Virus record (IMG/VR): IMGVR_UViG_3300045988_098382
Source of the DNA: a virus
Length of the DNA stretch: 64,000 nucleotides
Direction: 5' to 3' (one strand)
Part shown: positions 23,652 through 62,338 of the stretch, one piece after another
How the letters are laid out: every line of letters starts with the position of its first letter
Position numbering within the stretch: the first letter of the stretch is position 1
Translations under genes and position numbers: made by a program
Notes under the pieces: model-generated
Seen by the model: only the letters and a program-made list of their open reading frames with translations
The model's database searches: none
What the model was told of the DNA's origin: nothing

Positions 23652-24141
23652 TAATTGATTCTTTTAATGTTAAACCTATACTATATTTATAAAACACTTC
23701 AGTTATATAATCTTTAGTTTCTTTGTGAATTTTCATATGAGATTGTTGTTTAGCCCACCATGTATATTCTCTTCTTGGGTCAGCTCCATATGTTTTAGCC
23801 GCTGCTAAATAATCACATATAAGTTCTAGAACATATTTTTTAGGCATTCTAGCAGGAACTCCTCCATCATCTAAAGAATGTATCCAATATTCATAATGAT
23901 GAGGATTCCGTCCTCTATGATGAAGAAATGTTTGACTATATCCTAATATTTTACGTTCGTTTGCTAATGAACTTATATTATCGTTCCAATATTTAATGGC
24001 TCTTGAAAATTCTACATAACTAAATTTAGATAAATCATGAGTAATACCTTGCCAATATAATCCTATTTGAAAACAATATTTAGCAACATAATACTTATGA
24101 GTTAAGATTCGTTTTATTAATTTTATCCAAACTAAGTTCAT
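23638..24141 (-). CDS. Hypothetical protein, possible HD-like metal-dependent hydrolase
   Basis: GITHDLSKF ... HHRGRNPHH histidine-rich motifs. Weak call. Confidence 0.3.
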   Translation of the reverse strand: MNLVWIKLIKRILTHKYYVAKYCFQIGLYWQGITHDLSKFSYVEFSRAIKYWNDNISSLANERKILGYSQTFLHHRGRNPHHYEYWIHSLDDGGVPARMPKKYVLELICDYLAAAKTYGADPRREYTWWAKQQSHMKIHKETKDYITEVFYKYSIGLTLKESINGNY

Positions 24142-25363: not shown

Positions 25364-25747
25364 TTATTTAAGAATTTTAACTTTTACGTTCTTAATACTA
25401 ATTCGTTTAGAATTTTTGGGATGTATTAATATATCAATACGATGTTTATGTCTTTTATTCATAACATCCCTAACTTCATATATCCCAAATCCTTCTATAA
25501 ACACTTTTTTAGGTTTATTCTTTGGAAATAAATAAAGTAAATCACGAGATATAGCACACCATTTAATTTTATTATGTTTTAAATGATGTAAATTAATTTT
25601 AGAACCATCAGCTGTGACTAATGGTTTATTATTACATTGACTCTTTACTGGTTGATAACAAGTAAGAGTTACATGAGTTACAGTTTGAGCAATACTTTTA
25701 GTACATAAAAAACATAATAATACTAATATAAATTTAAATCTTTTCAT
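25364..25747 (-). CDS. Secreted 3D-domain protein (MltA/lytic-transglycosylase-like cell-wall binding domain)
   Basis: Signal peptide MKRFKFILVLLCFLCTKSIAQ. TCYQP...TADG...H......A.......EGFGIYEVRD resembles the 3D domain. Confidence 0.5.
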   Translation of the reverse strand: MKRFKFILVLLCFLCTKSIAQTVTHVTLTCYQPVKSQCNNKPLVTADGSKINLHHLKHNKIKWCAISRDLLYLFPKNKPKKVFIEGFGIYEVRDVMNKRHKHRIDILIHPKNSKRISIKNVKVKILK

Positions 25748-32758: not shown

Positions 32759-32837
32759 AAATTTGTAAATGTTTAAATAATAAAAATTAAATATCTAAGA
32801 ACTAACTGATGTTAATTCCAAGGGGGCATTTATTTTT

Positions 32838-33992
32838 TTATAATTTATAATTTACAAGACCTGTAGCTTTACTTGTAGAATAGCAACTATTAATTAAATA
32901 TATTCTAATATATCCATAATCAGTCATAGTTACTACATACTTTTCTGCAACATTTACCATTAATATACGATCATCTACAAAATAGTCTCCAGTCTCTAGA
33001 TACTTCAATTCTTTATCTTCAGTAGTAGAACCATAATCCTCATTGAACTTAGAAGCCCATTCGTTATAGAATTCTTTCTCTTCATTGGAACGATTTTCCC
33101 AATCTTTCTTTTTAAGTTCTTTATACTTATTATAAATTTTCAATAAATTATTTAGATTTTCAGGAGTAAATTTCAAGTCACAATGTCTAACTTGTACTTC
33201 TCTATATAAATAAGTAAATCTAGAGAACTCAATATTAAAGGTTTCTTTAATATCAGGAAGAGATTCTACTCCATGAATATTAATTTCAGTTGCTATAGCC
33301 TTAATTAAGTCTATAGTAATAATATTCATAGAATGAGTTAACTCTATAATCTTTTCTATAGCAGTTTTATCTTCTAAGATATCGTTAAGAATTTCTCTAG
33401 TAACCTCCTCTGAAAGATTATTGAAAGACTTTTTATATCTTATTCTAGAAGGTCTACCAAGAAGATTTGGATCTACATTTAACTCATTAGTAGTAAGTAA
33501 AAATACCTTACGATAAATAGAGTTATAAGTACCATCCATGAAAGAAAGAACATCTGAAGAATTTTTAAATTCTTTCTCATACTCATCAAAGAAGAAGATA
33601 CAGTCAAAATCAATGGATGTAGATAAATATTTTATTAATTTACTATTAGTATCACCACCCATTGATTGTACTAAGATTACAGGAAGCTGTAAACGATTAC
33701 AAAGTTCCTTTGCGGTAACTGTTTTACCAGTTCCTTTGATTCCATCTAGCAGAACACCTAAATTTCCTGTAGTGTTCTCATATGTCTTTAAGACATAATC
33801 AATAAATTTTTGGTTTAGACCATACAGTTTGTAATCAAACGTAAAAGACTCAGCGATTTTACTTAAATAAAATCCAGTCATTGAGAGTTTTACTTCATAA
33901 ATACCTTTCGGTAATCCTTCAGGATGAGATACTGTTGTAGCACTACCCTGACTAAAAATGTTACCATCTTGTAACCAAATTTGTTTACTCAT
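32838..33992 (-). CDS. AAA+ ATPase
   Basis: Walker A GVLLDGIKGTGKT and Walker B IFFFDEYEK. Classic-clade AAA spacing. Confidence 0.7.
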   Translation of the reverse strand: MSKQIWLQDGNIFSQGSATTVSHPEGLPKGIYEVKLSMTGFYLSKIAESFTFDYKLYGLNQKFIDYVLKTYENTTGNLGVLLDGIKGTGKTVTAKELCNRLQLPVILVQSMGGDTNSKLIKYLSTSIDFDCIFFFDEYEKEFKNSSDVLSFMDGTYNSIYRKVFLLTTNELNVDPNLLGRPSRIRYKKSFNNLSEEVTREILNDILEDKTAIEKIIELTHSMNIITIDLIKAIATEINIHGVESLPDIKETFNIEFSRFTYLYREVQVRHCDLKFTPENLNNLLKIYNKYKELKKKDWENRSNEEKEFYNEWASKFNEDYGSTTEDKELKYLETGDYFVDDRILMVNVAEKYVVTMTDYGYIRIYLINSCYSTSKATGLVNYKL

Positions 33993-37753: not shown

Positions 37754-37780
37754 AATTTAATTATTAAATTGTTTTATTTA

Positions 37781-37996
37781 CTATTTAAATAACTCTATAA
37801 TTGGATAATAAATAATTGTATTATACTCAGCTATATTTAGGGCCCAAACTGTAACCAAAATCGTAATAAAGACTCCTAATCCCACAACGAGATATCTTCC
37901 TTTATACATAATTCTAGTTTCTTTTAATAATATTACTCTAAATACTATATATAATACAATCGTAACTATCCCTAACAGTACTTTAAGTATACTCAT
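37781..37996 (-). CDS. Small two-TM membrane protein
   Basis: 71-aa hydrophobic ORF. Confidence 0.35.
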   Translation of the reverse strand: MSILKVLLGIVTIVLYIVFRVILLKETRIMYKGRYLVVGLGVFITILVTVWALNIAEYNTIIYYPIIELFK

Positions 37997-39113: not shown

Positions 39114-39332
39114 TTATTTAACTAATTTATAATCACCAATCTCAAATGCTACTTCTGTAGTATCTAAAGACCAAACTTCAGGAAATACATTGAGACCATC
39201 AAATGAATGACACTCTACTTCTATGCTGTTATTAGTTCTATCTATATTAAGAACTTTAAACCACATAGGTTTCTGACATCCCTTCCACGCTTGAGAAAAG
39301 ATGTCATTTACCTGTAATACTATTTTGCCCAT
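39114..39332 (-). CDS. Hypothetical protein
   Basis: 72-aa ORF. Confidence 0.35.
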   Translation of the reverse strand: MGKIVLQVNDIFSQAWKGCQKPMWFKVLNIDRTNNSIEVECHSFDGLNVFPEVWSLDTTEVAFEIGDYKLVK

Positions 39333-39637
39333 TCTGAATCAATATTGAGAAGTCTGAACACGTATTTAATATTATCTATTATGTCTACCAAACTATCCTG
39401 AGTATTTAAATAAATAGCATAAGCTAAACGAGCCATTTCAGGAGTTTCAAAAACAAGACTGCATACAGTTCCATGATTAGCATTCTCATATTTATCATTA
39501 GGTTTAATGGAATATCCAGGTCCATTCTTCCTAATAGTATACTCTGGACCTCTGTTAAGTCTCTTTTGTAATGCATTATACATTAAGTTTTGTTCTACTG
39601 GACTTAATGAATCAATAATTTTCTTTATATTTTCCAT
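39320..39637 (-). CDS. Hypothetical protein
   Basis: 105-aa ORF. Confidence 0.4.
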   Translation of the reverse strand: MENIKKIIDSLSPVEQNLMYNALQKRLNRGPEYTIRKNGPGYSIKPNDKYENANHGTVCSLVFETPEMARLAYAIYLNTQDSLVDIIDNIKYVFRLLNIDSEWAK

Positions 39638-41066: not shown

Positions 41067-41426
41067 TTATAATTGTTTTAACATATTTGTAGCTACGTGT
41101 AATGAAATATCCACAGTTGTATGAATATCATCATTTAACTTTAAGATATATGTATTATTTTCATCATTCTTTCTAGTTATTTCAGATATGTATTTATGAT
41201 TTATTAAAAATCCTTGTGTTGCAAGAATAAAATCAATACATAAAACACGTGAAATATTTTTCAATGAACAGCATACAATAATACCATTGCCATGAACATC
41301 TATTATAGTACTATATTTACCAGATGTTTTTATACATACAATGTCATTTATGTTTATCTGTTTGTATTCTCGTCCCTTAAACACTAAAAATGTATCGGAG
41401 TCAATTTGTATTGTTTTTATTTCCAT
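41067..41426 (-). CDS. Hypothetical protein
   Basis: 119-aa ORF. Confidence 0.4.
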   Translation of the reverse strand: MEIKTIQIDSDTFLVFKGREYKQININDIVCIKTSGKYSTIIDVHGNGIIVCCSLKNISRVLCIDFILATQGFLINHKYISEITRKNDENNTYILKLNDDIHTTVDISLHVATNMLKQL

Positions 41427-43904: not shown

Positions 43905-43990
43905 GAATTTGTACGGTAGAAAGGATTCGAACCAATGACCTTCTCGAAATGACCTATTATAAAAAGAGATGCTCTAACCACTGAGCTACT
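43905..43990 (-). ncRNA. tRNA-like gene with perfect acceptor and D-arm but a 4-bp anticodon stem enclosing a 20-nt loop and a degenerate T-stem
   Basis: Acceptor ACGGUAG/CUACCGU. D GCUC-AGUGGUUA-GAGC. UCUC-(20 nt)-GAGA. T region UGGUUCGAAUCCUUU. Same architecture as 44426..44506. Confidence 0.35.
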
Positions 43991-44050
43991 ACCGTAAGTA
44001 CTAGTTTATATCGGAAAACTAGTAAAACGTTAACACATTATTATGGAAAC

Positions 44051-46676: not shown

Positions 46677-47209
46677 TGATAAATTCCTCCCAAAGATAAT
46701 TGTGCTTGTAATATTTCTAAGTCACTTTTAATTGGAAGTTCTTTACCATGAATAGCTTTGTACTCTTTACTTACTTGTGCAATAGTTTTCTTTTTAGAAA
46801 AAACTAATGCTGTAATCTTAATAATGTCTTTTGTTTCCATTTTTTTTTAACTATTTAATTATTAATAATGTGCCATCACCTTTCTCATTTAAGAGTCTGC
46901 TACTTTGGATATGCAGGATGTAGGTTTACACTAGAGCCCTATCTGTCACAGACTGAACTCTAATATTTGTCTTTGTAATCTATTGTGCTTATGTACATAA
47001 TAGATTACTAAAGTAACTAGCCCTATCTATCACAGACCGAACTAGCGAAAATGATCTAAACTGTATATTGTTGATAACTATTTTATTTTAAAAATACATA
47101 AGTCTTGTCTTATGATTAACCAATTTACTTTCCAAGATGCCAACTATTTATTATACTCTATAGTACTAGAGTGCAGCTTAATCCTTTTGTATTAATAATA
47201 TGACAATTA

Positions 47210-47584
47210 CTAATACACTATACTTCTTAAAGATTCGTAACCTTCATATATTGGAAATTCCGAATTAAGAGTAATCTTAATAAATACTCTATCATCAATA
47301 GTTACAAGTCCTACAGTTTTAATATTGCGATTACAATTATCAAAACTAGTACAAATAACTGTATTAGAGGTAAAATCTGTTACACCTTTAAAACCCATAT
47401 CAACAAGAACTTTACATATAGGTGTTAAGTAATAAATACTACCTTCCTTGATAACACAAGAAGAAAATGGAATTACTCTATCACCAATGTGATAAGTTCT
47501 AGTATCACGATCTATTGTGAGAGCCTTACCTGCAAGACTCTCACAACCTGATACAATTTTTTTATTTAAGTTCTCTGTATTCAT
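47210..47584 (-). CDS. Hypothetical protein
   Basis: 124-aa ORF. Confidence 0.4.
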   Translation of the reverse strand: MNTENLNKKIVSGCESLAGKALTIDRDTRTYHIGDRVIPFSSCVIKEGSIYYLTPICKVLVDMGFKGVTDFTSNTVICTSFDNCNRNIKTVGLVTIDDRVFIKITLNSEFPIYEGYESLRSIVY

Positions 47585-49927: not shown

Positions 49928-49966
49928 TTTTTTTGTTTTTTGTTAATGTGTTATTTATAAAAAAAA

Positions 49967-50254
49967 CTATTCAAAATACTCAGGATCAGTGCCTTTATAC
50001 ACTTCTGATAAATTAATACCAGTGTGTTCTCTAATACCTGCAGAGGTATCAAACCAGCAGGAAGCCCAATATGCATCATACTCAATATCAAGAACTAATT
50101 GTCCTTTGTAATAATGAGTAGACTTTACCTGGACTTTATCCAACTTATCTAATTTATCTAATACTTCTTTCTTAGATAAATTAGATAAGAGTACAAAGGT
50201 AGACACTAATGTGTCATACCCTTGTAACTCATTCTTTTTATTAGACATACTCAA
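49967..50254 (-). CDS. Hypothetical protein
   Basis: 95-aa ORF. Confidence 0.4.
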   Translation of the reverse strand: MSMSNKKNELQGYDTLVSTFVLLSNLSKKEVLDKLDKLDKVQVKSTHYYKGQLVLDIEYDAYWASCWFDTSAGIREHTGINLSEVYKGTDPEYFE

Positions 50255-52519: not shown

Positions 52520-52917
52520 AACCTTTTTGCTTTTTAAATGTTAAACTTTTTTTTTGTTTGGTTTTTACTCCAAATATGTGGGGGGCTCTAAGGGGCAGTC
52601 TACTCCCTCCCACATAATAAAAATTAATTTTTAAATCCAAATCCTCACCTTATTTTCTCCATAAAAATCCCTATTTTTAAACCCTAGGGGGCTATATAAA
52701 ATCTTCTCTAAAAAAATTTTAAAATTTTAATTTAAAAATCTTAGAATATTAACTTTTACAAAAATTAACTTTTAATATTCCATACCTCGACTATATTACT
52801 CGTGTAATCAAAAAGAAATATTAAATGAATAAAGAACAACTAATACAAAGTATTAAAAACCTTCCTGATTAGTATAATATAAATTTATAGGTTATTGATA
52901 ATGTAATTCATATAACT

Positions 52918-53127
52918 ATGACTAAACAGGTAGATGAATTTGAAGAATATTGTAGTAAATTAGATGATGAAACATTTAATAATGCTTGTCTAATATTTGG
53001 AATTATCTCAGATATATCTTTAGAAGATTTTTCTTCTAATTTATATAATTCTAAATATAAAAAATATAAACAAGAATTTAAACATATAGTAGATTTTTTA
53101 AATGATAGAAACATTACAAAAAATTAA
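52918..53127 (+). CDS. Hypothetical protein
   Basis: 69-aa ORF at the start of the plus-strand island. Confidence 0.35.
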   Translation: MTKQVDEFEEYCSKLDDETFNNACLIFGIISDISLEDFSSNLYNSKYKKYKQEFKHIVDFLNDRNITKN

Positions 53128-53323
53128 TAAAGTAGTTCCTAATCTTACAGTATCTCAATTAATAGAACTGGTAAATATTATTAATGGACCTAAATTAACT
53201 ATAGATAATATGATTTTAAAAGGTATAAAAGATATACCGCATAATGGGCTTATTTCAATAGACACTAGTAATAATAAAACTACTTCTACTGAAAATCCTT
53301 TTAATGTTAATAGTTATCTATAA
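53102..53323 (+). CDS. Hypothetical protein
   Basis: 73-aa ORF. Confidence 0.35.
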   Translation: MIETLQKINKVVPNLTVSQLIELVNIINGPKLTIDNMILKGIKDIPHNGLISIDTSNNKTTSTENPFNVNSYL

Positions 53324-53332
53324 AGATAATAT

Positions 53333-53404
53333 TCTCCTATGGTGTAATGGTTAGCACAGAAGACTCTAAATCTTTTAGTCAGGGTTCGAATCCTTGTGGG
53401 AGAA
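53333..53404 (+). tRNA. Amber suppressor tRNA (anticodon CUA), probably tRNA-Gln-derived
   Basis: Acceptor UCUCCUA/UGGGAGA (U1-A72, one G-U). U8. D-arm GUGU-AAUGGUUA-GCAC. Anticodon stem GAAGA/UCUUU, 7-nt loop CUCUAAA (U33, C34-U35-A36, A37). T-arm CAGGG-UUCGAAU-CCUUG. Discriminator A. Confidence 0.8.
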
Positions 53405-53496
53405 GAATAGTATAAGTAGAAACCTCCACGTGGTGCTATTCGGGTAACGCTAATTCTACTTCAAAACATAACAAAGTTTAAATTTTTAAATAAGAA

Positions 53497-54174
53497 TTGA
53501 ACATGGGTTATATTTATTGTATTACAAATTTAATTAATGAAAAGAAGTATGTTGGAAAAACAACATATTCAGTTACAAAAAGATTCCAAGAACATTGTAG
53601 GGATTCCAAAAAAGAAAGATGTGAAAGAAGACCTCTGTATGATGCTATGAATAAGTATGGTATTGAAAATTTTGTAGTGGAAGAATTAATAGAGTGTCCG
53701 AATGATGAGCTAGATTCATATGAAAAAATGTATATAGAAAAATTACAAACTTACGGACACAATGGCTATAATGCTACTAAAGGTGGAGATGGCTCTATAC
53801 TATTTGATTATGATAAAATTATTGAAACCTACGCGTTAGGAGGTACTATGACTGAATGTGCTGCCAAAATGCATTGTTCAGTAGATACAGTTAAAAAAGT
53901 ATTAACTATTAATAATATTCCTATAAGACATAATCGAAGAGGTTGTTGTTCTGACCCTAAAAAAGTAGAACAATATTCTCTTGAGGGAGTCTTTATAAAA
54001 GAATGGGAAAGTATAACATTAGCTGCTCATTGGTTAGTAGATAATGGTTATGCTAAAACTTATAATAGTGGAGTAAAACAAAAAATAAGATTATGTATGC
54101 GAGGAAAAAATAAAACAGCATATAAATTTATTTGGAAATTTCCTCAAGAAGAACATGATATCAGCAATTTATGA
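53497..54174 (+). CDS. GIY-YIG homing endonuclease
   Basis: N-terminal GYIYCITNLINEKKYVGKTT...RFQEH matches the GIY-(10-11)-YIG core with Arg and Glu. C-terminal basic DNA-binding region. Confidence 0.8.
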   Translation: MNMGYIYCITNLINEKKYVGKTTYSVTKRFQEHCRDSKKERCERRPLYDAMNKYGIENFVVEELIECPNDELDSYEKMYIEKLQTYGHNGYNATKGGDGSILFDYDKIIETYALGGTMTECAAKMHCSVDTVKKVLTINNIPIRHNRRGCCSDPKKVEQYSLEGVFIKEWESITLAAHWLVDNGYAKTYNSGVKQKIRLCMRGKNKTAYKFIWKFPQEEHDISNL

Positions 54175-54439
54175 ATTAAATGGTAAGATTTTAAAAACAA
54201 CTAATCTTACTAAAAAATTAAAACGATTAAAATCAGAACCTAAGATTCTATTTCAATTAGAAAATGGAACAGAAGCTGATTTAGACCAATGGATTAAAGA
54301 CAACCAAAATATAAATTCTAATTCAGAAAAAGAAGATATAGAAATTAAAAAATATCATTATAGAAATCCAATTACAGGATATACAATGACTTCTATATAT
54401 GATAATCTAGATGTTAATGGTTATATAAAAATTGATTAA
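54155..54439 (+). CDS. Hypothetical protein
   Basis: 94-aa ORF. Confidence 0.4.
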   Translation: MISAIYELNGKILKTTNLTKKLKRLKSEPKILFQLENGTEADLDQWIKDNQNINSNSEKEDIEIKKYHYRNPITGYTMTSIYDNLDVNGYIKID

Positions 54440-54633
54440 TGACTAACAAAGAATTAAAAGACTTAAAGTCTAAAATGAACAAAGTACTTAATGAAGTACA
54501 GTAGATTATTGATACTATAGAAGATAATGATTTACAAGATAATCAATTAACTCTTGATTTTTGTGATAAGTTAAATGAATTATCTGTTACTTATTAATAA
54601 ATATTTGGGGATAGGTATTTATTAATTTTAAAA

Positions 54634-54677: not shown

Positions 54678-57516
54678 TTTAATGTCCCAACTCCTACAAA
54701 AACTATCTAAAATGGTAAGATCTAGTCTGAGGATAATACTCCCGATTATTCATATTGTTATATATATCTATAAAACCTCCAATAGTGCCTGTACTTACTC
54801 CTATAGGAGTGACATATTTATTCCACTAATACTAAATATTATCAACTTTTCTTTGTGGTATTACAGAAAAATTAGTTTGCCAAGCATGTGTACGACTTTC
54901 CTAAAGTTTTTTATTCCATTTTCTATACTAAGGATATTTATAATAAGCTTTAGTATAATCATACTGAGGCTTAGAAGAATAGACATAATTATTAAGAGGA
55001 CTATATTCTGTAGTCTATTTTACTTTAGGTCCAAACCCACTATACTTTACATATTTACCCCATCTCATAGGAGCAGTATAAGGGTTAATAACTTGATATT
55101 CAGGGAATCCCATGCTTGTATAATCTCTAAAATCAAATCTAGGATTTGAACCTATTTCTAGCATATTAGTAGCTCCTGACTAAGATCCTGAAGAGTAACT
55201 TTTTAATCCGATAGTAGGCTACTACAAAGCACCAAAATACTTACCTCCATTATATGTCTCTCCATAATATCCATTTATATTTAATTTTTTAGCTAACTCT
55301 GTAGTCTATTTGGTACCTTCTTCTATAGATAAAGTACCCTAAGCTACTTTTCTATTAATATCATCAAATAAATAATAATTTGGGTCTGTTCTTTGTAATC
55401 TATTTTTTATAGAATTTACATAATCCTAAAAAGAATTAATGCCAACTCTATTATTTAATATAGCCGTAACATCTCCTCCTAAACCTCCCCTTGAAGAATT
55501 TAATAACTAATTACCTCCAATTCCTGAAGCCTATCCATTAAATGGGGCTACTACGGAACGAAGAGCATTATTTTCTGTAGTAATATCCCATTTTGGAGTA
55601 AATTTAGAAGACCAGAATGCTGTTCTTATTCCCATATTATCTGCTATTAAATTCTAATTAACTATAGATTCTACAGCATCGTCACTATAAACCTATGGAA
55701 TATTCCATCTAGTTCTAGCTTCCTAAATTTCCTAAGGAGTTAACTTTAGTCTAGCCCAATCATTAGTAACAGCATTAGTATTCATTTTCTAGATTCTATT
55801 AGTTAGCCAAGGACTACTAAACATTTGAGCTTGTCTACCTACTTGCTTAGGTTTAAAACCATTATAGTTATCCATAGCTACCATTAAATCATATATTCTA
55901 GGATGTTTCTATAATTGGATATATAATTCTTCAGCTTTTATAGGCAGAGCCTACTCTGTAGTATTAAATACTTGACCTTTCTATATAGCTGTGTTACCTA
56001 GTGATTCCCACTATTTCTATAACTATTTATATTTCTATGGGTATAGTCTAGAATAATAATTATGAGCTAACTATCCTGTAGCATATCCTTTAGCATCTTC
56101 TCCAATAGTCTAAACATCGATTACATGATTACCATCAGAATTAAATACTTTGTTATTACCTTCTAAGGACTATTTAAACCCATTAGATGGTCCATATTGA
56201 GATCCTTTTTTACCAATACTTTTCTAGACTGCTCCTAATCTAGATTTAGTTGTTAGTAACTCTAAGTCATGAGGTACTCCGTTAATAATTCCAGAACCAT
56301 ATAATCTTGTAGAACCTCCAACAATAGCACTACCATTTAGAGTAGTTTCTAAATCTTTTAAATACTAACTTAACTCAGAAATACTTGAAGTAACTTTACC
56401 AGTTTCATAATTTATTTTTGGGCGAATAGTTACTTCTTGTCCATTTAAATTAATAGTTACGCTAGGATCTTTAATCTATTTTAAATTAGTTGCATAATCA
56501 GCGTGCCATTGTTTTCCACTTTTAGCAGTAGCTTTCCAATCAATTCTAGGATTATGAGTTCTAGTGTATGTTATATTTCTATATTCAGATAGAGCATTAG
56601 GATAAGTCGCCTCTAAATCAGACATTTTATTTTGTAGCTACTATTCATAAGCTTCTTTAGATGCAGATCTAGCCTCACCTATACTACTCCAAGTATATTT
56701 TTTATTAATTATATCAGATAATCTTTTAGCGGGTTTCCAAGATTTATAAATTCTATTAATACCATAAGGAGCAAAAGTAAAAGCGGTATTTAATCCAGCA
56801 CTTGCGTAATTTTTATCTTTAATATCGTGGTGTATGTCAGCAAGATTTTGCCCTATAAACATAGCATTACCTATACCTCTAGCAGTAGCACTAGGTAACA
56901 TACTAAGTACCATAGAAGTACCAGTATTTATATCATGTATAGATTTTAATAATCTATAACCTAAAGGAGCATCCCACTAAGAATTATTTACAAGATTTCC
57001 ATTACTATCTTTTAAATACTATCCAGTTTCTAAGTCTTTTAAGAATGGATCTTCTGGATTATAATCTACTGATCTATCAGACTATATATTAGGAGATACT
57101 TTATAAGTACTGCGATAATTAGCCTCAGCCTTATCTCTAGCATTTTTAGCTAGTACTTTACTTCCTGAGGTTTTTGAAGACGCTAACTCAGCAGCATTGC
57201 GCACTTTATTAATATTTATTTTGTGTGCATTATTAAAACCCTAGTTTACTTCCTATTTATTAGTTCCTCCAGTATTTACTAATCTATTTTTTCTATATAT
57301 AGGAGCATAAAATGTTTTTACTCTAGTACTATTATTCTATTCAATATGCTGAGGCACAACTTCTACCTAAGGTCTCTATAATTTTTGAGTTCTCTTCTAA
57401 AGATTTTGAAGATTCTAATATAAAGATTTTACTGAAACACCATTATCTTTAGAATTAAATAAATTTATTCCTCCCCAAGACTATTTATAATTATTATCTT
57501 TTACCTATACAGCCAT
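54678..57516 (-). CDS. Large recoded protein (about 945 aa, more than 40 in-frame TAG codons), probably virion/tail-associated
   Basis: Hand translation from ATGGCUGUAUAG... (M A V Q V K D N N Y K Q S W G G I N L...) down to a UAA at 54678..54680. Contains the fragment the track reports as 56641..56913. TAG is the only in-frame stop. Coordinates approximate. Confidence 0.5.
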
Positions 57517-58638
57517 GGTGTTCTTACTATTACTGGAGTTCCTAATTTATCTAATATTTTTAATCCTAACACAGCTTTACTGTCTAAATCATATAAACTC
57601 CATTTCTACTTATATTCATCAGGATTAAACTTCCAAATATCTTGTGCTCTATATACTTTTTTACCATTAGATATTCCTTCCTAAACTAAATGTCCAGCAG
57701 CATCAACTCCATTATCTCCAAAGTCTAGATTATTATTAGCACCTTTCCAAGGAGTTTTATTAGTTACATTAGAAGCTTTCTACATAGGTCTCTTAGTAAA
57801 GAAATCTAAAGTTTCAGTATTTTCATATACAGGAATATTTTTATATGGGTATATCTTTCTTATATAATTCTCATGCGGACCATAATCTATATTTATTTTC
57901 TTTACTCCATAAGAAGGATTAATAGTTTTATTATATAAATAAGCATCAATCATATCATTACCTTTAGCTGCTTTCTAAAATCCAGTATATGCTTCAGGAG
58001 CATAAGTATTATACCCTATACCAGTTGATATATAAGATAATACTCCAGCATGTTTTTTAGGACTTACTTTATGCATATTATATACTATATCTTCTATAGG
58101 ATTAGCATTATTAGAAGTTCTCATAGCTACTTCTACTCCACGTTTTAAAGGAGCTTTTACAGCATATCCTATTGCAGGAAGTATTAATAAATAATTACTA
58201 GCTTTAGTTGGATTTCTAGATATATCTAAAGCACCTTTAGTATAGTCATATATTGCCTAAGCAGCTGGAGCTAAAGCATAACCTATTCCTGAATTAACTA
58301 ATGCTTTAATAGGACTAGTATTATTATTCCAACTGTCTATTTCTCTAGCATATGCTCCTTTTATAGGATGATTTCTATTCTTATTACTATAATTATATAA
58401 TTTAGAATTAGTATGTCCTCCCCTATTTTATAGTTCCTCTATTATCTACAAATACATCTCGTATACTATTTAAAGTTCTAACTGGAATAACTCTCTACTA
58501 ATATTTAGCACCAAAATATGGAGATTTAAATCTAGGATGACTTAGTCTATTCTAATACTCCATATTTATAGCCATCTATTTATTCCGAGTATTATTATTT
58601 ACTCCCTTGTTTTGTTTACTCTCATCTACTATTGGCAT
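57501..58638 (-). CDS. Recoded protein (about 379 codons) with a frame discontinuity at a GGGG run near 58410
   Basis: Starts MPIVDESKQNKGVNNN... Frame 1 hits UAA just after AAAUAGGGGAGG. A -1 shift in the G-run continues a clean ORF (...GGHTNSKLYNY...GIGYALAPAAQAIYDYTKGALDISRNP...TPWLYR*) with TAG as sense. Confidence 0.4.
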
Positions 58639-58640
58639 AT

Positions 58641-58856
58641 TTATACTTTATTTTTCCATATACTAGTTATACTGTCTATACCTAATAATCCCATACAACA
58701 ATATAAAACTGTATCTACCATATCTGGTGCTTGTATCTAACTAATAGAACAGTATATTAGAATAATTAAACTAACTATCCATCCTAATATTCCACATACT
58801 CTTTTACTACTTATTCCAGTATGTGCTGTTACTAATTTAATTAAAAACTCTTTCAT
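58641..58856 (-). CDS. Holin-like small membrane protein (72 aa, one in-frame TAG)
   Basis: MKEFLIKLVTAHTGISSKRVCGILGWIVSLIILIYCSIS[TAG]IQAPDMVDTVLYCCMGLLGIDSITSIWKNKV: two TM segments. Sits 1.8 kb from the SLT lysin. Confidence 0.45.
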
Positions 58857-59354
58857 TAATTAACTTAGATAACCAACTATAATGTTTTCTATGACTTAGA
58901 TAATCTAAATTACCCTAATTCTAATAAGCTTCTCTTTCAAAGGAGATATTTTTATAAGCTAATTTAGTATCTCTGTACATAATTAATCTAATTAAATATT
59001 CTATTATATACCATAAATAAAAACCTATCCACAATAGTTCCTATCCCTATTTAGTATGTATAGTCTCATGATTTATATCTATCTTATTTAGTATTCTTCT
59101 ACAGAATAGTATGCCAAATAAATTTATACATTTAAAACCTTTTGGAGGTAAGATATTATTAATTATTATTTTCATTGTCTAAGTAATCTAATATTTCAGT
59201 AATAGTATGAGATTCTATTAATAAATAGTTTTCATTTTCTAATTGATCCAAGAGACCTTTTCCAAGTGTGATATACATTTTTAAAACTTTAAATATTTAT
59301 TCCATAACTACTTATCTCTCTCATTTACGAAATCTAAAAATCTTTGTAATTCCT

Positions 59355-59875
59355 CAATCTTTTCTGTCAAAGTATATGTATCCATTATTATTTTTATTAG
59401 GTTTTAAATTAAATCCATTACCTTTAGTTTTAGTAACATACAATGTGGGAAGAACATTAGCCCCATCATAAACTATTTTAGTTCCACCATTATTATAATC
59501 ATAATCGGAGCCTAGATAGTCCATAGTATAATCTAAAGGTTTTCCACTATTAGGTTTTATATATTGATCTTTACTTAAATAATATATCTTATTATCTTTA
59601 CTCCAAGATTTATCTCCTAAATCTGGATAAGTTGCATGTGATTTAGTTTTATAAGTTCCTGAAGCTCCTTCATCAGAAAAATGTCCAGTAGGAATATGTT
59701 TACTCCAATTATGTGCTAAAATACTATTTAACTATAGCCAAGCTACTATAGGTTGGTCATTATAATATTTTCTATAATCATAATGATCTTTAGATAAATC
59801 TTGATTATTCCAGGCTTGAGACAACCACTTACTCCAAGTATTATAATTATATAAAGGCTATTTATTTTTTGTCAT
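59355..59875 (-). CDS. Recoded hypothetical protein (about 173 aa)
   Basis: MTKNK[TAG]PLYNYNTWSKWLSQAWNNQDLSKDHYDYRKYYNDQPIVAWL[TAG]LNSILAHNWSKHIPTGHFSDEG...ends TGA. Start overlaps the upstream stop (AAUGAC). Confidence 0.45.
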
Positions 59876-60662
59876 TATATGTAGATATTCCAAATTTAAT
59901 AAAATCCCCAACATTTCCAGTAAGTCCTAGCATATCTAAAACTAAATCAATTTTAGGATTATGAAATCTAGTTACATCAGAAGCTCCTAAAGTTCCAGCT
60001 ACTCCTAATGTTCCACTAGTAGCATTCCAGGTAGTTTCAAAAGTATTGTTATTTTTAATAGCATCATAAGTCTAATAGCCATCTATTAAAGTACCTCCAA
60101 CCTACATAGGTAATTGGGCTTTCTAAAGAAAATTTGCTACAGCTCTTTTAGTAGCAGAAGTAGCTGTTTCCCATTTTCTCCAATTAGAATAGGCTCCTAA
60201 TATAGAACCTCCTGACAAACCTAATTCTATAGCAGTTAAAGTAGCATCAAGACCATTTTTATAATCTTTCCATTTATCTAATTTTTTTTGTATTTGATTT
60301 TTAATAGCTTGTTCTACTTTAATAGACTAAGAAGTATTTATATCAGCTTGCATTGCATTCTAAATAAAATTAGCTTTTTGCTAAAGATTATTATTAGTAT
60401 TAGGAGTAACTTTTATATTAGAAAATAACTAAGAATCTTTGTTCTAATTTTTTTTCATTCTAAGCTATCCTTCTTTACTATTTATATACTTTTCTCTATT
60501 TTTTATATTTAACTATTTTGTTTTTAACTATTCCTATTTAATACTATCTATATTTTCCTTAGACTATCTAGCTATTCTATCCTAGTAATCTTCTTCTGAT
60601 TCCCAACTTTTCTTTTTTAATGTAGGAGTTGCTCTTACAGGAACTACATTACCACGTTGATA
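59862..60662 (-). CDS. Recoded hypothetical protein (about 266 aa, more than 25 TAG codons), Gln/Lys-rich N-terminus and Gly-rich hydrophobic C-terminus
   Basis: MLKLIPKYQRGNVVPVRATPTLKKKSWESEEDY[TAG]DRIAR[TAG]SKENIDSIK[TAG]... start codon nested in the SLT stop (AAUGCUUAA). Confidence 0.5.
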
Positions 60663-61338
60663 TTTAGGAATTAATTTAAGCATTTCTAAATTTATTTATA
60701 TATTTTGCAACATTAGTACCATTAGCATCAGATCCTCCTGTAATACCATACTTATAATAATTTTTAGCCCATGTTGGATTTAGCCATGATGCTGCTATAG
60801 CTTCTCCAGTAACTGTTATACCATTATTTCTTAAAAATCTTGCATTATCATCATATAATTGTGAAGCAGCTAATACTTGTGCATCAGGGCTATTTTTAAA
60901 TTGTTCTCTAGATAAATTAGAATAACTTTTTCTAGTACTATCTATAAACTAAAAATATCCAGCAGCAGAACTATTTTTAGACTAAGCTTTAGGGTTAAAT
61001 CTTGATTCTAAAGAAGCTATCTTCATTAAAGTAGTTTTCTTGTTTCCAGTGATACCATATTTATCTAAAGTCTACTCTAGTATCTACTTATTTTTACTAG
61101 GAGTATTATGATTTAATTTAAGCTAGGTATATTTATATTGTACAGGCTCTTTAGCTTTGTTAATAGAAAAATATCCATCTAAATTTAAACCATTAATATG
61201 AAAATCTCCAGTATTTAATTCAGGAATAAACTAATATTGCCTAGGAGTAAAATCTAAATCTAAGCCTTTACTTTTTAGTACTTCTGTAGCAGGTTTATCA
61301 GGAATATCTAAAGCTTCATATTTAAAATATTCACTCAT
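60655..61338 (-). CDS. Lytic transglycosylase (SLT domain, family-1 lysozyme-like) encoded with 7 in-frame TAG codons
   Basis: ...MKIASLESRFNPKA[TAG]SKNSSAAGYF[TAG]FIDSTRKSYS... matches the SLT consensus E-S-x-F-N-P-x-A-x-S-x-x-G-A-x-G-L-M-Q-(F/L). The invariant Gln of GLMQ is supplied by a TAG codon. ATGA overlap with the upstream HNH gene. Stop TAA. Confidence 0.75.
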
Positions 61339-61580
61339 AATTTTATTAAACCATTATGTATTTTAGAATGACAATTTTTACAAACACAAACTGTTTGAGA
61401 TAATTCTTTAATAAATAAATCTGTAGGTATGTGACTTACAGCTTGTGATATATTAAATAATTTTTCTCCAATATGATGAAATTCTAAACAACATTTAGCT
61501 GATTCACCACATACTATACATTGTGTTTTATGTTCATTTAAAATCTTTTTATTTTCTTTATAATATTTATTCTTACGCAT
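61335..61580 (-). CDS. Small HNH endonuclease
   Basis: CIVCGESAKCCLEFHHIGEKLFN...CVCKNCHSKIHNG: CxxC + HH...N + CxxCH..H HNH/Zn motif. Standard-code ORF. Confidence 0.6.
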   Translation of the reverse strand: MRKNKYYKENKKILNEHKTQCIVCGESAKCCLEFHHIGEKLFNISQAVSHIPTDLFIKELSQTVCVCKNCHSKIHNGLIKL

Positions 61581-62338
61581 AATTAGAATAATTATTAGGC
61601 TAATTAAAATTAACTAGAGCTAGAGGTCCTAATCCTTGAGTAGCTCTATAATAATTAATTCTTTTCTTCACTCCAGGTCTTGTAAGTAATAAATCTTTTT
61701 TATAGCCATTATAACCTTTTTCGGAGTTATACATATACTTAACATTTTTTTGTATTCCGTTATAATACTACTAAAAATTCTAAGCTTTAAGCGAATCTGG
61801 ATACATTCTACTATGCCAATCAATTAAATGCTATGCAAAAGATTGTGCATTAGGATATTTTTTATTATCTCCAGTAGCAAATCCAGTCCAACCTTTTTCT
61901 GCAACCTTTTGATTAGTTAAATCTAAAGCTGCTTGTGGAGTAACTCCTTTATCTACTAAAGCTTGATATATCTAAGTTACATTGTCATATTGACTTTTAG
62001 TTCCAGGTATCTTACCTGCTAACTACATTTTAAGAATAGTACCTCCATTAGCATGTTTCCATTTAGCAGCATTTCTAGCAAAATTAGCTCGACGTTTTTG
62101 TAAAGGAGTAGCATTAGGATTACTTAATACAGATCTAGCATGTTCCTATACAGATTCTCCAGCTGCTTTAGCTGATGCAGTAAACTTACCCTTATTTTTA
62201 TCTTTTATATGGATAGTATTTTTTCTATCTTTTATCTATCCGCCTTTCTTTAGTTTATTTATAAAACTAAACTGATTTTTAATCTTAAAATCCTAATAGG
62301 CAGAATAAATTCTTTCTTGTAATTCAGAATTAGTCATA
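61571..62338 (-). CDS. Recoded hypothetical protein (about 255 aa, 10 in-frame TAG codons)
   Basis: MTNSELQERIYSAY[TAG]DFKIKN...GESV[TAG]EHARSVLSNPNATPLQKRRANFARNAAKWKHANGGTILKM[TAG]LAGKIPG... ends TAA. No TGA/TAA in frame. Confidence 0.55.

What the first reader, a model, noticed from the sequence alone, without database searches (positions are those of the whole stretch)
58641..61338. A lysis-type gene set (SLT lysin + holin-like protein) is itself TAG-recoded
The only recognisable peptidoglycan-cleaving enzyme in the window, the SLT lytic transglycosylase, and an adjacent two-TM holin-like protein need 7 and 1 TAG read-throughs respectively. Lysis would therefore be translationally gated by suppressor-tRNA levels. 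A separate, non-recoded holin/spanin-like set sits at 17.7-19.9 kb, giving two candidate lysis modules with different translational requirements.
Basis: inference. Interest (0 to 1): 0.55.

Follow-up and report, generated by a model that had tools for sequence, protein, structure and literature searches.

The report
Recoded cell-wall-cutting operon in crAss-like phage
The amber-recoded transglycosylase gene is real, but it sits in a late operon of a large crAss-like gut phage that looks more like cell-wall-piercing virion cargo for infection than like the phage's lysis cassette, and gating late genes through stop-codon recoding is an already published idea.

Summary
The SLT gene (60676-61338, minus strand) needs 6 in-frame TAG read-throughs, not 7. 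The 71-aa membrane protein (58641-58856) needs 1. TAG means Gln: it swaps with CAA/CAG in relatives and occupies the conserved Gln of the SLT motif.

The recoding is not specific to these two genes. Every gene of the 54.7-62.3 kb minus-strand operon except an HNH endonuclease uses TAG for 33-100% of its Gln codons.

The window belongs to a roughly 170-180 kb crAss-like phage. Borges et al. have already proposed that recoding gates late and lysis genes in such phages.

The "lysis set" reading is weak:
- The two genes are 1.8 kb and several genes apart.
- In a distant relative they lie in convergent operons.
- The L,D-carboxypeptidase (DUF5675) that marks the annotated lysis cassette of other crassviruses lies elsewhere in relatives' genomes.

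The SLT gene's neighbours point to virion cargo. The upstream 254-aa protein joins a motif of ΦcrAss001 cargo protein gp45 (E 1.8e-19) to a GH73-like glycosidase fold that Pfam misses. Relatives fuse the same motif to other wall hydrolases. My best reading is an entry/ejection wall-degrading module (about 0.5). Auxiliary lysis remains possible (about 0.3).

The parts
61573..62337 (-). First gene of the operon, 254 aa with 10 in-frame TAG. Residues about 32-101 form module A, a motif of ΦcrAss001 cargo protein 1 (gp45). Residues about 110-235 form module B, a GH73-like (FlgJ-type) lysozyme-fold domain with invariant Glu147.
61335..61580 (-). HNH endonuclease gene, 81 aa. It is the only gene of the block without an in-frame TAG, and it overlaps both neighbouring genes.
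   Evidence: PHROG HNH families match at E 2e-13. It has 0 TAG. An HNH gene also follows the module-A gene in the distant relative L017.
60676..61338 (-). SLT (GH23) lytic transglycosylase, 220 aa with 6 TAG read as Gln. It has an N-terminal leader, a roughly 60-aa head, a repeat-prone linker and a C-terminal catalytic domain (about residues 85-220).
   Evidence: Pfam SLT scores 37.2 bits. PHROG hits are mostly SLT domains of virion proteins. The best PDB match is phiKZ gp144 at E 8e-4; T7 gp16 scores 0.49. TAG alternates with CAA/CAG in relatives. The linker is tandemly duplicated in variants. The family architecture is shown.
59862..60683 (-). Protein of 273 aa with 14 TAG. It has a polar, coiled-coil-like N-terminal half and Gly/Ala-rich moderately hydrophobic C-terminal segments. 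It is replaced by unrelated ORFs of 214, 142 or 81 aa in close relatives.
   Evidence: ORF. Pfam, PHROG and PDB searches find nothing. Variability among relatives is shown.
59354..59875 (-). Protein of 173 aa with 2 TAG. It is homologous to the N-terminal half of IAS virus gp063, a protein of the crassvirus structural gene block whose C-terminal half is a 'phage tail lysozyme' domain.
   Evidence: A DNA match appears. blastp gives 44% identity over 167 aa at E 4e-38. IAS gp063 residues 220-340 match Pfam Phage_lysozyme2 at E 1.2e-25.
58837..59175 (-). Small zincin-type (HExxH) 'protease' of 112 aa with 4 TAG. It is conserved in the structural modules of many crAss-like phages.
   Evidence: phrog_15610 matches at E 1.6e-45. 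DNA matches reach 'putative zincin superfamily protease' genes of cr110_1, cr11_1 and cr3_1.
58641..58856 (-). The 'holin-like' protein of 71 aa with 1 TAG. It has one strong TM (residues 20-38) and one weaker hydrophobic segment (about 46-66). Conserved motifs are G-I-S-S-K-R-V-C-G, Q-A-P and L-L-G-I-D-S. It is a core gene of this operon in every lineage examined.
   Evidence: Hydropathy. There are 139 homologues at 54-92% identity and none has a Pfam domain. The alignment is. phrog_1322 'membrane protein' matches at E 8.6e-4.
57501..58638 (-). A gene that is one 378-aa ORF in relatives. Here it is split into 76-aa and 306-aa ORFs by a 1-nt insertion in a homopolymer run at about 58423.
   Evidence: DNA alignment with L010 and L008. 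No family hits.
54679..57516 (-). Last gene of the operon, 945 aa with 47 TAG (5 per 100 codons). It is replaced by a 379-aa protein in close relatives, which is behaviour typical of a variable, receptor-binding-type protein (inference).
   Evidence: ORF, variability. PHROG and PDB find nothing. Partial similarity to a 1067-aa protein of L017.
53332..53405 (+). tRNA with anticodon CUA, the amber suppressor needed to read the whole block. It lies on the opposite strand, next to a GIY-YIG-type endonuclease gene.
   Evidence: ARAGORN.

Best explanation
Window 54679-62337 (minus strand) is a tightly packed late operon of a large, distantly related member of the Crassvirales. Most genes overlap by 4-20 nt. 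It runs divergently from the exonuclease-terminase-portal operon. Its products most likely travel in the virion and act at infection.

**Proposed mechanism.**
- Two glycan-cleaving enzymes open the host peptidoglycan when cargo proteins are expelled. One is the 254-aa protein, which joins a gp45 cargo motif to a GH73-like domain. The other is the SLT/GH23 protein.
- The accompanying hydrophobic or membrane proteins (273 aa, 71 aa, 378 aa), the zincin-type protease and a large variable protein take part in envelope penetration and host recognition.
- In-frame TAG codons, read as Gln by the phage tRNA(CUA), restrict synthesis of the whole set to the period when the suppressor is active. The same applies to the other late genes.

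**Shown:**
- the ORFs exist;
- TAG means Gln;
- the SLT and GH73-like domains are present;
- module A is homologous to gp45;
- wall-hydrolase domains are swapped around module A and module B in relatives;
- the L,D-carboxypeptidase gene lies elsewhere in relatives.

**Inferred:**
- these proteins are packaged into the virion;
- they act at entry;
- their synthesis is timed by the suppressor.
For: 1. **Phage identity.** The zincin gene, the portal and other proteins match Crassvirales. Relatives are 140-181 kb contigs.
2. **Cargo motif.** The module A profile hits ΦcrAss001 cargo protein 1 gp45, a protein shown by mass spectrometry and cryo-EM to be inside the virion (PMC10172136), at E 1.8e-19.
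3. **Fusions in relatives.** Module A is fused N-terminally to three different wall hydrolase families: Phage_lysozyme2 (P0252, P0358), Glucosaminidase (P0357) and, here, the GH73-like module B. Module B is fused to NlpC/P60-CHAP (P0334) and to LysM (P0301).
4. **Link to the structural block.** p173 is homologous to the N-terminal half of IAS virus gp063. That protein carries a phage tail lysozyme domain and is encoded between the tail tubular and IHF-like genes.
5. **PHROG matches of the SLT domain.** Most named matches are to tail fibre, internal virion, lytic tail, baseplate hub and tape-measure proteins. None is an endolysin family.
6. **Operon position of SLT.** In relative L017 the SLT gene is embedded by overlapping codons in the operon 925 aa - SLT - GH73-like 145 aa - 760 aa, where the last protein carries an HEMEH motif. 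It is separate from the 71-aa homologue.
7. **Lysis cassette elsewhere.** The L,D-carboxypeptidase (DUF5675) that other crassvirus records annotate next to 'lysis regulatory protein' and 'holin' genes is about 60% identical in this clade. It occurs in the same contigs as the SLT orthologue, outside the window.
8. **Literature parallel.** A zincin-like protease domain is a known component of virion-packaged crassvirus proteins and has been suggested to help digest peptidoglycan (bioRxiv 10.1101/2020.03.07.982082).
9. **Shared leader.** SLT-family members, and the NlpC/P60 fusion P0334, share an N-terminal leader 'DLF[VAT][ST]Y..V..P' followed by a variable linker. This is compatible with a docking or packaging peptide.
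Against: - There is no direct evidence that any protein of this operon is in a virion. A search of the only relevant metaproteome supplement for these terms found nothing.
- The SLT protein itself lacks module A.
- Its family is mostly stand-alone proteins of 215-260 aa, which is the size of an endolysin.
- Its closest solved relative is the phiKZ endolysin gp144, and the alignment is collinear.
- The 71-aa protein has the size and likely N-in/C-in hairpin topology of a class II holin. It stays in the same operon as the hydrolases in all five lineages examined.
- The DUF5675 enzyme's role as endolysin rests on annotation and gene neighbourhood, not on experiment. Its upstream neighbours in this clade show no homology to the annotated holin or lysis regulators.
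- The gp45 segment homologous to module A is not among the resolved, virion-bound parts of gp45. Its role as a packaging signal is therefore conjecture.
Confidence: 0.5

Rival explanations
1. One reading: SLT is an endolysin and the 71-aa protein is its holin. Under this reading the operon is a lysis module, main or auxiliary, and its translation, and so lysis timing, is gated by the level of the amber-suppressor tRNA.
For: - SLT has a modular head-linker-catalytic layout, is 220 aa long, and its closest solved relative is the endolysin phiKZ gp144.
- The 71-aa protein is small, has a strongly hydrophobic TM1, a second polar-faced hydrophobic segment and basic residues on both ends. It is kept in the same operon as wall hydrolases across lineages.
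- Both genes need TAG read-through.
- Borges et al. found lysis genes preferentially recoded in TAG-recoded crAss-like phages.
- The Lera zeta-crAss genome is reported to have four putative lysin genes, so several lysins per genome are not unusual (PMC12386605).
Against: - The genes are about 1.8 kb apart here and in convergent operons in L017.
- SLT is absent from the operon in L096 and L097, and from the available, incomplete part of MT835470, while the 71-aa gene remains.
- The block contains no spanin-like lipoprotein.
- Small ORFs with a hydrophobic segment are common in this window (16 of 58), so proximity means little.
- No holin family in Pfam matches the 71-aa protein, and its 139 homologues carry no Pfam domain.
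- Its 54-92% conservation is high for a holin (general knowledge).
- The orthologue of the L,D-carboxypeptidase of the annotated crassvirus lysis cassette exists elsewhere in the genome.
- TAG density in SLT is average for the block.
- The operon's first gene carries a virion-cargo motif.
Confidence: 0.3
2. A dual-use or mixed operon. The module-A hydrolase is packaged for entry. The free SLT protein, which has no cargo motif, acts from within at the end of infection alongside the DUF5675 enzyme. The 71-aa protein serves another membrane role, for example superinfection exclusion or anchoring of the zincin protease.
For: - SLT lacks module A whereas its neighbour has it.
- Some phage lysins are known to be both virion-associated and lytic, for example PRD1 P15 (my own knowledge).
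- The operon mixes enzymes, membrane proteins and a large variable protein.
- The weak phrog_1322 hit of the 71-aa protein falls in the 'moron/host takeover' category.
Against: - Nothing tested here separates the fates of the two hydrolases.
- The shared N-terminal leader of the SLT family and of the NlpC/P60+B fusion suggests a common handling of these enzymes.
- All genes appear co-translated from one tightly overlapping operon.
Confidence: 0.12
3. An artefact reading. Under it the in-frame TAGs are real stops, so the region consists of gene fragments or pseudogenes and no full-length SLT is made.
For: - Under the standard code the region breaks into short ORFs.
- One gene of the block is indeed disrupted by a 1-nt insertion.
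Against: - Domain matches run across TAG codons.
- TAG alternates with CAA/CAG among relatives and sits at a conserved catalytic-motif Gln.
- A tRNA(CUA) is encoded in the window.
- More than 1300 database proteins were called full-length for the SLT family.
- TAG read as Gln has been shown by proteomics in crAss-like phages (PMC9523058).
- A standard-code relative, MT835470, encodes uninterrupted homologues of several genes of the block (module A, zincin protease, membrane protein) and of the neighbouring packaging genes.
Confidence: 0.02

Closest known systems
Stop-codon (TAG to Gln, code 15) recoding of late structural and lysis genes in crAss-like and other gut phages (Borges et al., bioRxiv 10.1101/2021.08.26.457843; proteomic validation in PMC9523058)
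   Same: - The genome is AT-rich (about 29% GC).
- Early and replication genes use the standard code.
- Late modules are dense in in-frame TAG.
- The phage encodes a tRNA(CUA).
- TAG substitutes for CAA/CAG.
- The proposed consequence is that late proteins cannot be made until suppression is active.
   Different: - Borges et al. singled out an amidase and a spanin as preferentially recoded. Here the recoded genes in question are an SLT and a small membrane protein that are probably not the lysis cassette, and SLT is not recoded above the block average.
- A relative with about 50% portal identity (MT835470) uses the standard code throughout.
ΦcrAss001 cargo protein 1 (gp45) and the crassvirus ejected-cargo set (Bayfield et al. 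2023, PMC10172136)
   Same: A 56-70 residue motif (IHIK.KNKGKFT...RKRA.FA.NA..W) is shared at E 1.8e-19 with gp45 residues 371-426. As in ΦcrAss001, the gene lies in a late module.
   Different: - gp45 is 842 aa and has no reported wall-hydrolase domain.
- Here the motif is a short module on proteins of 86-409 aa and is fused to interchangeable hydrolases.
- The rest of gp45, including the portal-binding domain 425-552 and the tail-barrel helix 214-245, has no detected counterpart.
- Bayfield et al. state that epsilon-group crassviruses lack a detectable gp45 homologue.
Virion-associated peptidoglycan hydrolases of podoviruses: T7 gp16 (N-terminal SLT domain) and phi29 gp13
   Same: - These are SLT or lysozyme-fold enzymes encoded among structural or ejection genes.
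- T7 gp16 is a weak sequence hit of the SLT protein (E 0.49).
- A gp16-type 'internal virion protein with endolysin domain' is a tblastn and PHROG hit.
   Different: - The proteins here are small and separate, not domains of a 1300-aa core protein.
- No virion proteomics exists for them.
- Two distinct glycosidase folds sit side by side in the operon.
phiKZ gp144-type modular endolysins of Gram-negative jumbo phages
   Same: This is the best solved-structure match (E 8e-4). The order is collinear, with an N-terminal non-catalytic part and a C-terminal GH23 domain carrying the E-S ... G-x-F-Q-F motifs, and the size is similar (220 vs 260 aa).
   Different: - No PG_binding_1 or other wall-binding domain is detected in the N-terminal part.
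- The N-terminus carries a family-specific leader and a repeat-prone linker.
- The gene context is cargo- and tail-like.
Lysis cassette annotated in other Crassvirales: 'lysis regulatory protein', 'lysis regulatory protein/holin', then L,D-carboxypeptidase/transpeptidase (DUF5675), upstream of a tail protein (annotation transferred from ΦcrAss001)
   Same: This clade keeps the DUF5675 enzyme, about 60% identical to those of DAC15 and the PhiCrAssBcn phages. It holds the same position just upstream of a tail-fibre-like gene, and the two genes before it carry 7 and 5 TAG.
   Different: - That cassette is outside the window and unrelated to the SLT block.
- Its upstream genes here have no detectable similarity to the annotated holin or regulators.
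- The enzymatic and lytic role of DUF5675 is inferred only (C82-like fold, bioRxiv 10.64898/2026.04.11.717860).

Membership tests
SLT / GH23 lytic transglycosylase (Pfam PF01464) | Sequence match to the family model above the curated threshold | tested here: met
   37.2 bits against a cut-off of 21.3, residues 98-170.
SLT / GH23 lytic transglycosylase (Pfam PF01464) | Catalytic Glu in the 'E-S' motif and the downstream G-x-x-Q motif | tested here: met
   'IASLESRF' and 'AGYFQF' align with 'FASIESAF' and 'TGWFQF' of phiKZ gp144. E111, S112 and Q130 are invariant in 25 close homologues.
SLT / GH23 lytic transglycosylase (Pfam PF01464) | Lysozyme-like fold of the catalytic domain | tested here: inconclusive
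   The AlphaFold2 model from a shallow alignment was unusable (mean pLDDT 40).
Phage endolysin (functional class) | Acts from within at the end of infection and is released by a holin | not testable with these tools
   This needs expression, lysis or genetic assays.
Phage endolysin (functional class) | Gene adjacent to holin and spanin genes in a conserved lysis cassette | tested here: not met
   The nearest candidate membrane protein is about 1.8 kb away. It is in a different operon in L017, and in L096 and L097 its operon has no SLT gene. The block has no lipoprotein or spanin.
Holin (functional class; class II topology) | Small protein with two or more TM segments and a charged C-terminus | tested here: inconclusive
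   One strong TM (Kyte-Doolittle 2.48) and a second segment at 1.39, with a short basic C-terminus 'KNKV'.
Holin (functional class; class II topology) | Membership of a described holin family | tested here: not met
   No Pfam hit at E 0.01. None of 139 homologues carries a Pfam domain. The only hit is phrog_1322 'membrane protein' at E 8.6e-4.
Holin (functional class; class II topology) | Membrane hole formation that triggers lysis | not testable with these tools
   Requires experiment.
Code-15 (TAG read as Gln) recoded phage late genes | In-frame TAG at positions occupied by Gln codons in relatives | tested here: met
   43 of 49 alternative codons are CAA or CAG, and a conserved motif Gln is encoded by TAG.
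Code-15 (TAG read as Gln) recoded phage late genes | Phage-encoded suppressor tRNA(CUA), with recoding confined to late modules | tested here: met
   tRNA(CUA) lies at 53332-53405. Early genes have 9 TAG in 12187 codons, mostly terminal. Across the ten recoded genes of the block (HNH excluded) there are 94 in-frame TAG, making up 33-100% of Gln codons per gene.
Crassvirus cargo protein 1 (ΦcrAss001 gp45) family | Sequence homology to gp45 | tested here: met
   Homology covers one segment only: profile E 1.8e-19 to gp45 residues 371-426.
Crassvirus cargo protein 1 (ΦcrAss001 gp45) family | Full-length architecture (N-terminal TM, tail-barrel helix, portal-binding domain) | tested here: not met
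   The 254-aa protein has no counterpart to those parts. The rest of it is a GH73-like domain.
Crassvirus cargo protein 1 (ΦcrAss001 gp45) family | Presence inside the virion and ejection into the host | not testable with these tools
   A term search of the Peters et al. supplements gave nothing relevant.
GH73 N-acetylglucosaminidase (FlgJ/AtlA type), for module B of the 254-aa protein | Fold similarity to solved GH73 domains | tested here: met
GH73 N-acetylglucosaminidase (FlgJ/AtlA type), for module B of the 254-aa protein | Match to the Pfam Glucosaminidase model PF01832 | tested here: not met
   No Pfam hit at E 0.01. The profile against PDB gives only a weak CW_7-repeat-like hit at E 2e-4.
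GH73 N-acetylglucosaminidase (FlgJ/AtlA type), for module B of the 254-aa protein | Conserved catalytic Glu | tested here: inconclusive
   Glu147 is invariant in 28 sequences. Its structural equivalence to the GH73 catalytic Glu was not checked residue by residue.

The most novel reading that the evidence does not exclude
The gp45-derived motif (module A) may be a portable virion-cargo tag, possibly together with the N-terminal 'DLFxSY..V..P' leader of the SLT family. Under this reading, large crAss-like phages use it to load interchangeable peptidoglycan hydrolases (GH73-like, GH23, phage tail lysozyme, glucosaminidase, NlpC/P60) into the capsid or tail for ejection. That would supply the wall-piercing activity that has not been identified in crassvirus or N4-type ejectosomes. 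TAG recoding would keep these potentially self-destructive enzymes untranslated until virion assembly.
Probability: 0.35. Interest if true: 0.55.

Novelty: new variant of a known kind. Interest (0 to 1): 0.35.

Why it matters
This locus adds one more example, and it is probably not a lysis example.

The composition of the operon is worth more attention.
- A short, well conserved piece of the ΦcrAss001 cargo protein gp45 recurs as a module.
- That module is fused to several unrelated wall-hydrolase domains.
- One of those domains is a GH73-like fold that sequence libraries do not recognise.

How crassviruses and other podoviruses that eject large proteins get through the peptidoglycan is not settled. 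The 2026 N4 ejectosome paper notes that this activity must come from elsewhere. If these proteins are packaged, they are concrete candidates for that step in abundant gut phages, and they form a family of compact wall hydrolases active on Bacteroidota.

There is also a practical point for annotation. An SLT domain plus a nearby small membrane protein should not be called a lysis cassette in these genomes.

Tried and rejected
- **SLT structure prediction.** Only near-identical homologues could be supplied, and the model was unusable (mean pLDDT 40). The N-terminal head remains uncharacterised.
- **Searches that found nothing.** PDB, PHROG and Pfam searches of the 945-aa, 273-aa and 306-aa proteins, and of the L017 925-aa and 760-aa proteins, found nothing.
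- **A by-eye guess that failed.** I guessed that the secreted 127-aa protein at 25364-25747 is a 3D-domain wall hydrolase. Pfam was negative in the concatenated scan, and the only hit was phrog_21574 of unknown function.
- **The 17.7-19.9 kb set.** None of the candidate proteins there matches a Pfam or PHROG family; the only Pfam hits in that scan were RNase H and Macro in neighbouring genes just downstream. The 17661-18038 product has a u-spanin-like layout, with a lipobox-like N-terminus and a C-terminal TM. This is architecture only.
- **Metaproteome supplements.** I searched the Peters et al. supplements for SLT-related terms and one peptide and found nothing relevant. The phages studied there may differ from this one.
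- **Search for the 71-aa family in annotated crassviruses.** An HMM of the family found nothing in the fetched structural-module stretches (8-18 kb each) of four annotated crassviruses: cr110_1, cr124_1, IAS virus and cr128_1.
- **Search for the SLT family in isolates.** tblastn of the window's SLT protein and of one more distant family member (P0401) against 50,697 phage records found only the unannotated near-relative MT835539 plus three weak matches of about 31-43% coverage to unrelated phages.
- **Homology of the DUF5675 neighbours.** I tested the genes upstream of DUF5675 in this clade against the annotated crassvirus holin and lysis regulators and found none.
- **An unconfirmed by-eye call.** The N-terminal domain of the 440-aa SLT fusions (P0385 and others) looked to me like an M15/LAS peptidase. 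Pfam does not confirm this.
- **Pseudogene or fragment reading.** Rejected.

Full report
**1. What the window is**

The sequence is about 29% GC with a steady negative GC skew. It carries 18 tRNA genes, including one with anticodon CUA at 53332-53405 on the plus strand.

Gene calling with TAG treated as sense shows three zones:
- Positions 1-52519 hold minus-strand genes with essentially no internal TAG.
- Positions 52825-54597 hold a short plus-strand island, with the tRNA(CUA) next to a GIY-YIG-type endonuclease gene.
- Positions 54679-62337 hold a minus-strand block in which every gene but one is dense in in-frame TAG. A second recoded block starts on the plus strand at 62484.

DNA and protein matches place the phage among distant relatives of the Crassvirales:
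- The zincin protease matches cr110_1, cr124_1, cr11_1 and cr3_1, and one domain matches IAS virus.
- The portal is 23-31% identical to annotated crassvirus portals.
- Near relatives in IMG/VR are 140-181 kb contigs.
- The unannotated GenBank record MT835539 is about 93% identical across the block.

**2. Checking the observation**

The SLT ORF (60676-61338, minus strand, 220 codons) is real.
- It is longer than any TAA/TGA-free run in 200 shuffles of the region, whose maximum was 180 codons.
- It passes the Pfam SLT threshold, 37.2 bits against 21.3.
- It has six in-frame TAGs, not seven.

TAG is read as Gln. Across ten orthologues, 43 of the 49 codons that replace TAG are CAA or CAG. The one TAG that never varies encodes the Gln of 'AGYFQF', which aligns with 'TGWFQF' of the phiKZ transglycosylase gp144.

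The 71-aa ORF (58641-58856) has one invariant TAG. By hydropathy only its first segment is a strong TM. The second peaks at 1.39 on a 19-residue Kyte-Doolittle window.

The two genes are not neighbours. Between them lie a 273-aa gene, a 173-aa gene, two small ORFs and a zincin-type protease gene.

Recoding is not special to them. TAG supplies 33-100% of Gln codons in every gene of the block, and SLT at 55% is about average. The HNH gene at 61335-61580 has none.

In the early region the few TAGs sit at or near ORF ends and are followed by a TAA or TGA within a few codons. There, TAG behaves as a stop with a back-up.

**3. What is already known**

Borges et al. described exactly this arrangement in TAG-recoded crAss-like phages. 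They proposed that recoding blocks premature translation of structural and lysis genes, naming an amidase and a spanin as preferentially recoded. A review repeats the idea. Proteomics has shown that TAG is read as Gln in late proteins of crAss-like phages.

**4. Is this a lysis cassette? Gene order in relatives**

- *Close relatives.* They keep the order 254 aa - HNH - SLT - variable gene - p173 - (zincin) - 71 aa - 378 aa - variable large gene.
- *More distant TAG-recoded lineage (L017-L019).* The SLT gene sits in the operon 925 aa - SLT - 145 aa - 760 aa, with overlapping start and stop codons. The 71-aa homologue ends a separate, convergent operon.
- *Standard-code relative MT835470.* This record shows no in-frame TAG in its late genes. 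Its 71-aa homologue is wedged between 349-aa and 981-aa genes, and no SLT is found in the 117 kb available.
- *Two further lineages.* In both, the 71-aa gene ends an operon that contains no SLT gene: in L096 the operon carries a 'phage tail lysozyme' protein instead, and in L097 it has no Pfam-detectable hydrolase.

The small membrane protein is thus a core gene of this divergent operon, while the hydrolase type varies. There is no lipoprotein or spanin in the block. Hydrophobic small ORFs are common in this window (16 of 58).

**5. The lysis cassette annotated in other crassviruses is elsewhere**

MT835470 encodes a DUF5675 protein in its head/tail operon. The same protein occurs in the very contigs that hold the SLT orthologue, tens of kilobases away: IMGVR_UViG_3300045988_076860 and 3300001528_000174.

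It is about 60% identical to the 'L,D-carboxypeptidase/transpeptidase' of cultured and uncultured crassviruses such as DAC15 and the PhiCrAssBcn series. In annotated genomes that gene follows 'lysis regulatory protein' and 'lysis regulatory protein/holin', or a 'putative lipoprotein', and precedes a tail protein.

The position upstream of a tail-fibre-like gene is kept in this clade. There the two preceding genes carry 7 and 5 TAG, and the enzyme itself 0-2.

DUF5675 has a C82-like peptidase fold according to a 2026 preprint. Its lytic role is inferred from annotation and has not been shown. Its upstream neighbours here have no detectable similarity to the annotated holin or regulators.

**6. 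What surrounds the SLT gene**

*The 254-aa protein.* This is the first gene of the operon.
- Its residues about 32-101 match ΦcrAss001 cargo protein 1 (gp45). The single sequence gives E 1.7e-3. A 14-sequence profile gives E 1.8e-19 to gp45 residues 371-426.
- gp45 is a protein found inside the virion by mass spectrometry and cryo-EM, and it is proposed to be ejected first.
- Glu147 is invariant. Pfam does not detect the domain.

*Shuffling among homologues.* The gp45 motif appears fused to Phage_lysozyme2, to Glucosaminidase and to a CHAP-like region (identified by eye). The GH73-like domain appears fused to NlpC/P60-CHAP, to LysM and to a zincin-motif region. In L017 the two halves are separate genes, and the GH73-like one lies directly downstream of SLT.

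*p173.* It is 44% identical to the N-terminal half of IAS virus gp063. The C-terminal half of gp063 is a Phage_lysozyme2 domain (E 1.2e-25). That gene lies between the tail tubular and IHF-like genes.

*The zincin gene.* It is a conserved member of crassvirus structural modules. A zincin-like domain is known in virion-packaged crassvirus proteins.

**7. The SLT family itself**

A search of 1.84 billion representative proteins finds mostly 215-260 aa proteins with the SLT domain at the C-terminus. A few 360-460 aa forms carry a second domain.

About half of the members share an N-terminal leader of the form 'DLF[VAT][ST]Y..V..P', followed by a polar, variable linker. The strict motif occurs in 19 of 35, and degenerate forms occur in others, including the window's 'YFKYE'. 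The linker is tandemly duplicated in size variants of the window's protein. The same leader heads the NlpC/P60 + GH73-like fusion P0334.

PHROG matches of the SLT domain are mostly to virion proteins. The closest solved structure, however, is an endolysin, phiKZ gp144, aligned collinearly. Sequence alone therefore does not settle the role.

**8. Weighing the readings**

For an entry or cargo role:
- the gp45 motif sits at the head of the operon and is repeatedly fused to wall hydrolases;
- p173 links the block to a tail-lysozyme protein of the structural block;
- the zincin protease has virion-associated parallels;
- SLT is embedded among large non-enzymatic proteins;
- there is no spanin in the block;
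- the L,D-carboxypeptidase of the annotated lysis cassette lies elsewhere in the genome.

For a lysis role:
- SLT has the size and layout of an endolysin;
- the 71-aa protein has holin-like size and probable hairpin topology;
- the 71-aa gene persists in the same operon as the hydrolases.

No virion or expression data exist for this clade. I put the entry/cargo reading at about 0.5, an auxiliary or true lysis module at about 0.3, a mixed operon at about 0.12, and an artefact at about 0.02.

**9. Verdict**

The recoding observation is correct, with 6 TAGs rather than 7. It reflects the general late-gene coding of this phage, which is already described. The 'lysis set' label is not supported by gene order, family tests or genome context.

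The more interesting content is a clade-specific operon rich in wall hydrolases and built around a cargo-protein motif, including a GH73-like domain missed by sequence libraries. That makes it a new variant of a known kind, virion-associated wall hydrolases, and it is of moderate interest. Virion proteomics would settle the question.

Noticed in passing
window 43911-43995 (-): ARAGORN calls an 85-nt tRNA with anticodon UUA, which is ochre-suppressor-like. It has a long variable arm and a weak T-arm. TAA is the main stop codon of this phage (45 of 57 early genes). Either the call is wrong or its reading of TAA must be tightly controlled.
   Followed up: partly
window 1-52519, e.g. ORFs 3243-3479, 4053-4370, 10957-11730, 17661-18038, 37778-37996, 39308-39637, 47207-47584, 49955-50248: In the non-recoded early region the rare in-frame TAGs sit at or within about 10 codons of the ORF end and are followed by TAA or TGA. 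TAG seems to act there as the real stop with a back-up, so suppression would only add a short tail.
   Followed up: partly
window ~58418-58426: A 1-nt insertion in a C/G homopolymer run splits a gene that is a single 378-aa ORF in relatives L010 and L008 into 76-aa and 306-aa ORFs. This could be a sequencing or assembly error, a pseudogene or a frameshift site.
   Followed up: partly
window 61335-61580 (-); L017 3326-3616: An HNH endonuclease gene with no TAG sits inside the recoded operon and overlaps both neighbours. An HNH gene also directly follows the module-A gene in the distant lineage L017 (45% identity). The pairing therefore looks conserved and not like a recent homing insertion.
   Followed up: partly
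MT835470.1 (loci L020-L022): This relative, with about 50% portal identity, has no in-frame TAG in its late genes, so it uses the standard code. The genetic code differs within this crAss-like clade. In its available 117 kb the divergent operon contains no SLT gene.
   Followed up: partly
window 52825-54597 (+); L003, L008, L010, L011: The tRNA(CUA) lies in a small plus-strand island between the early and late blocks, next to a GIY-YIG-type endonuclease gene (53503-54174, identified by eye). Relatives have a different 272-aa endonuclease-like gene at that spot, or nothing, so the island is a hot spot for mobile endonucleases.
   Followed up: no
proteins P0001-P0003, P0008, P0090 (homologues of window 60676-61338): Size variants of the SLT protein (248-292 aa) differ by one to three tandem copies of the roughly 30-aa linker segment 'KEPVQYKHTQLKLNHNTPSKNKKILEQTLD' between the N-terminal head and the catalytic domain.
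   Followed up: partly
window 17661-18038 (-) and 19708-19926 (-): The first ORF has a lipobox-like N-terminus (…LLIATC) and a C-terminal TM, which is a unimolecular-spanin-like layout, and it ends at a TAG. The second is a 72-aa protein with two strong TMs. Neither has a family match, and no wall hydrolase is detected nearby.
   Followed up: partly
window 31205-33992, 19926-20339, 21607-22101, 23638-24141, 41067-41426 (-): Pfam hits in the early region are an SPFH/Band 7 + flotillin protein followed by an AAA ATPase, RNase H, a Macro domain protein, DUF5662 and a LytTR DNA-binding protein. The flotillin-like gene is an unusual cargo for a phage.
   Followed up: no
L016 (MT835539 24000-54949), just beyond the window's right end: The plus-strand late operon that starts at window 62484 continues with an exonuclease carrying an intein-like insertion (647 aa vs 305 aa in relatives), a large terminase split into pieces by endonuclease-like ORFs, a portal with 46 TAG, tail-fibre genes and a 2068-aa protein with 64 TAG.
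   Followed up: partly
L072 4638-6456 and L069 80-740 (relatives' DUF5675 region): The two genes upstream of the L,D-carboxypeptidase (DUF5675) carry 7 and 5 TAG. The enzyme gene has 0 TAG in one relative and 2 in another. If these are the lysis regulators, the published 'recoded lysis regulators' pattern applies to this clade at that locus and not at the SLT locus.
   Followed up: partly
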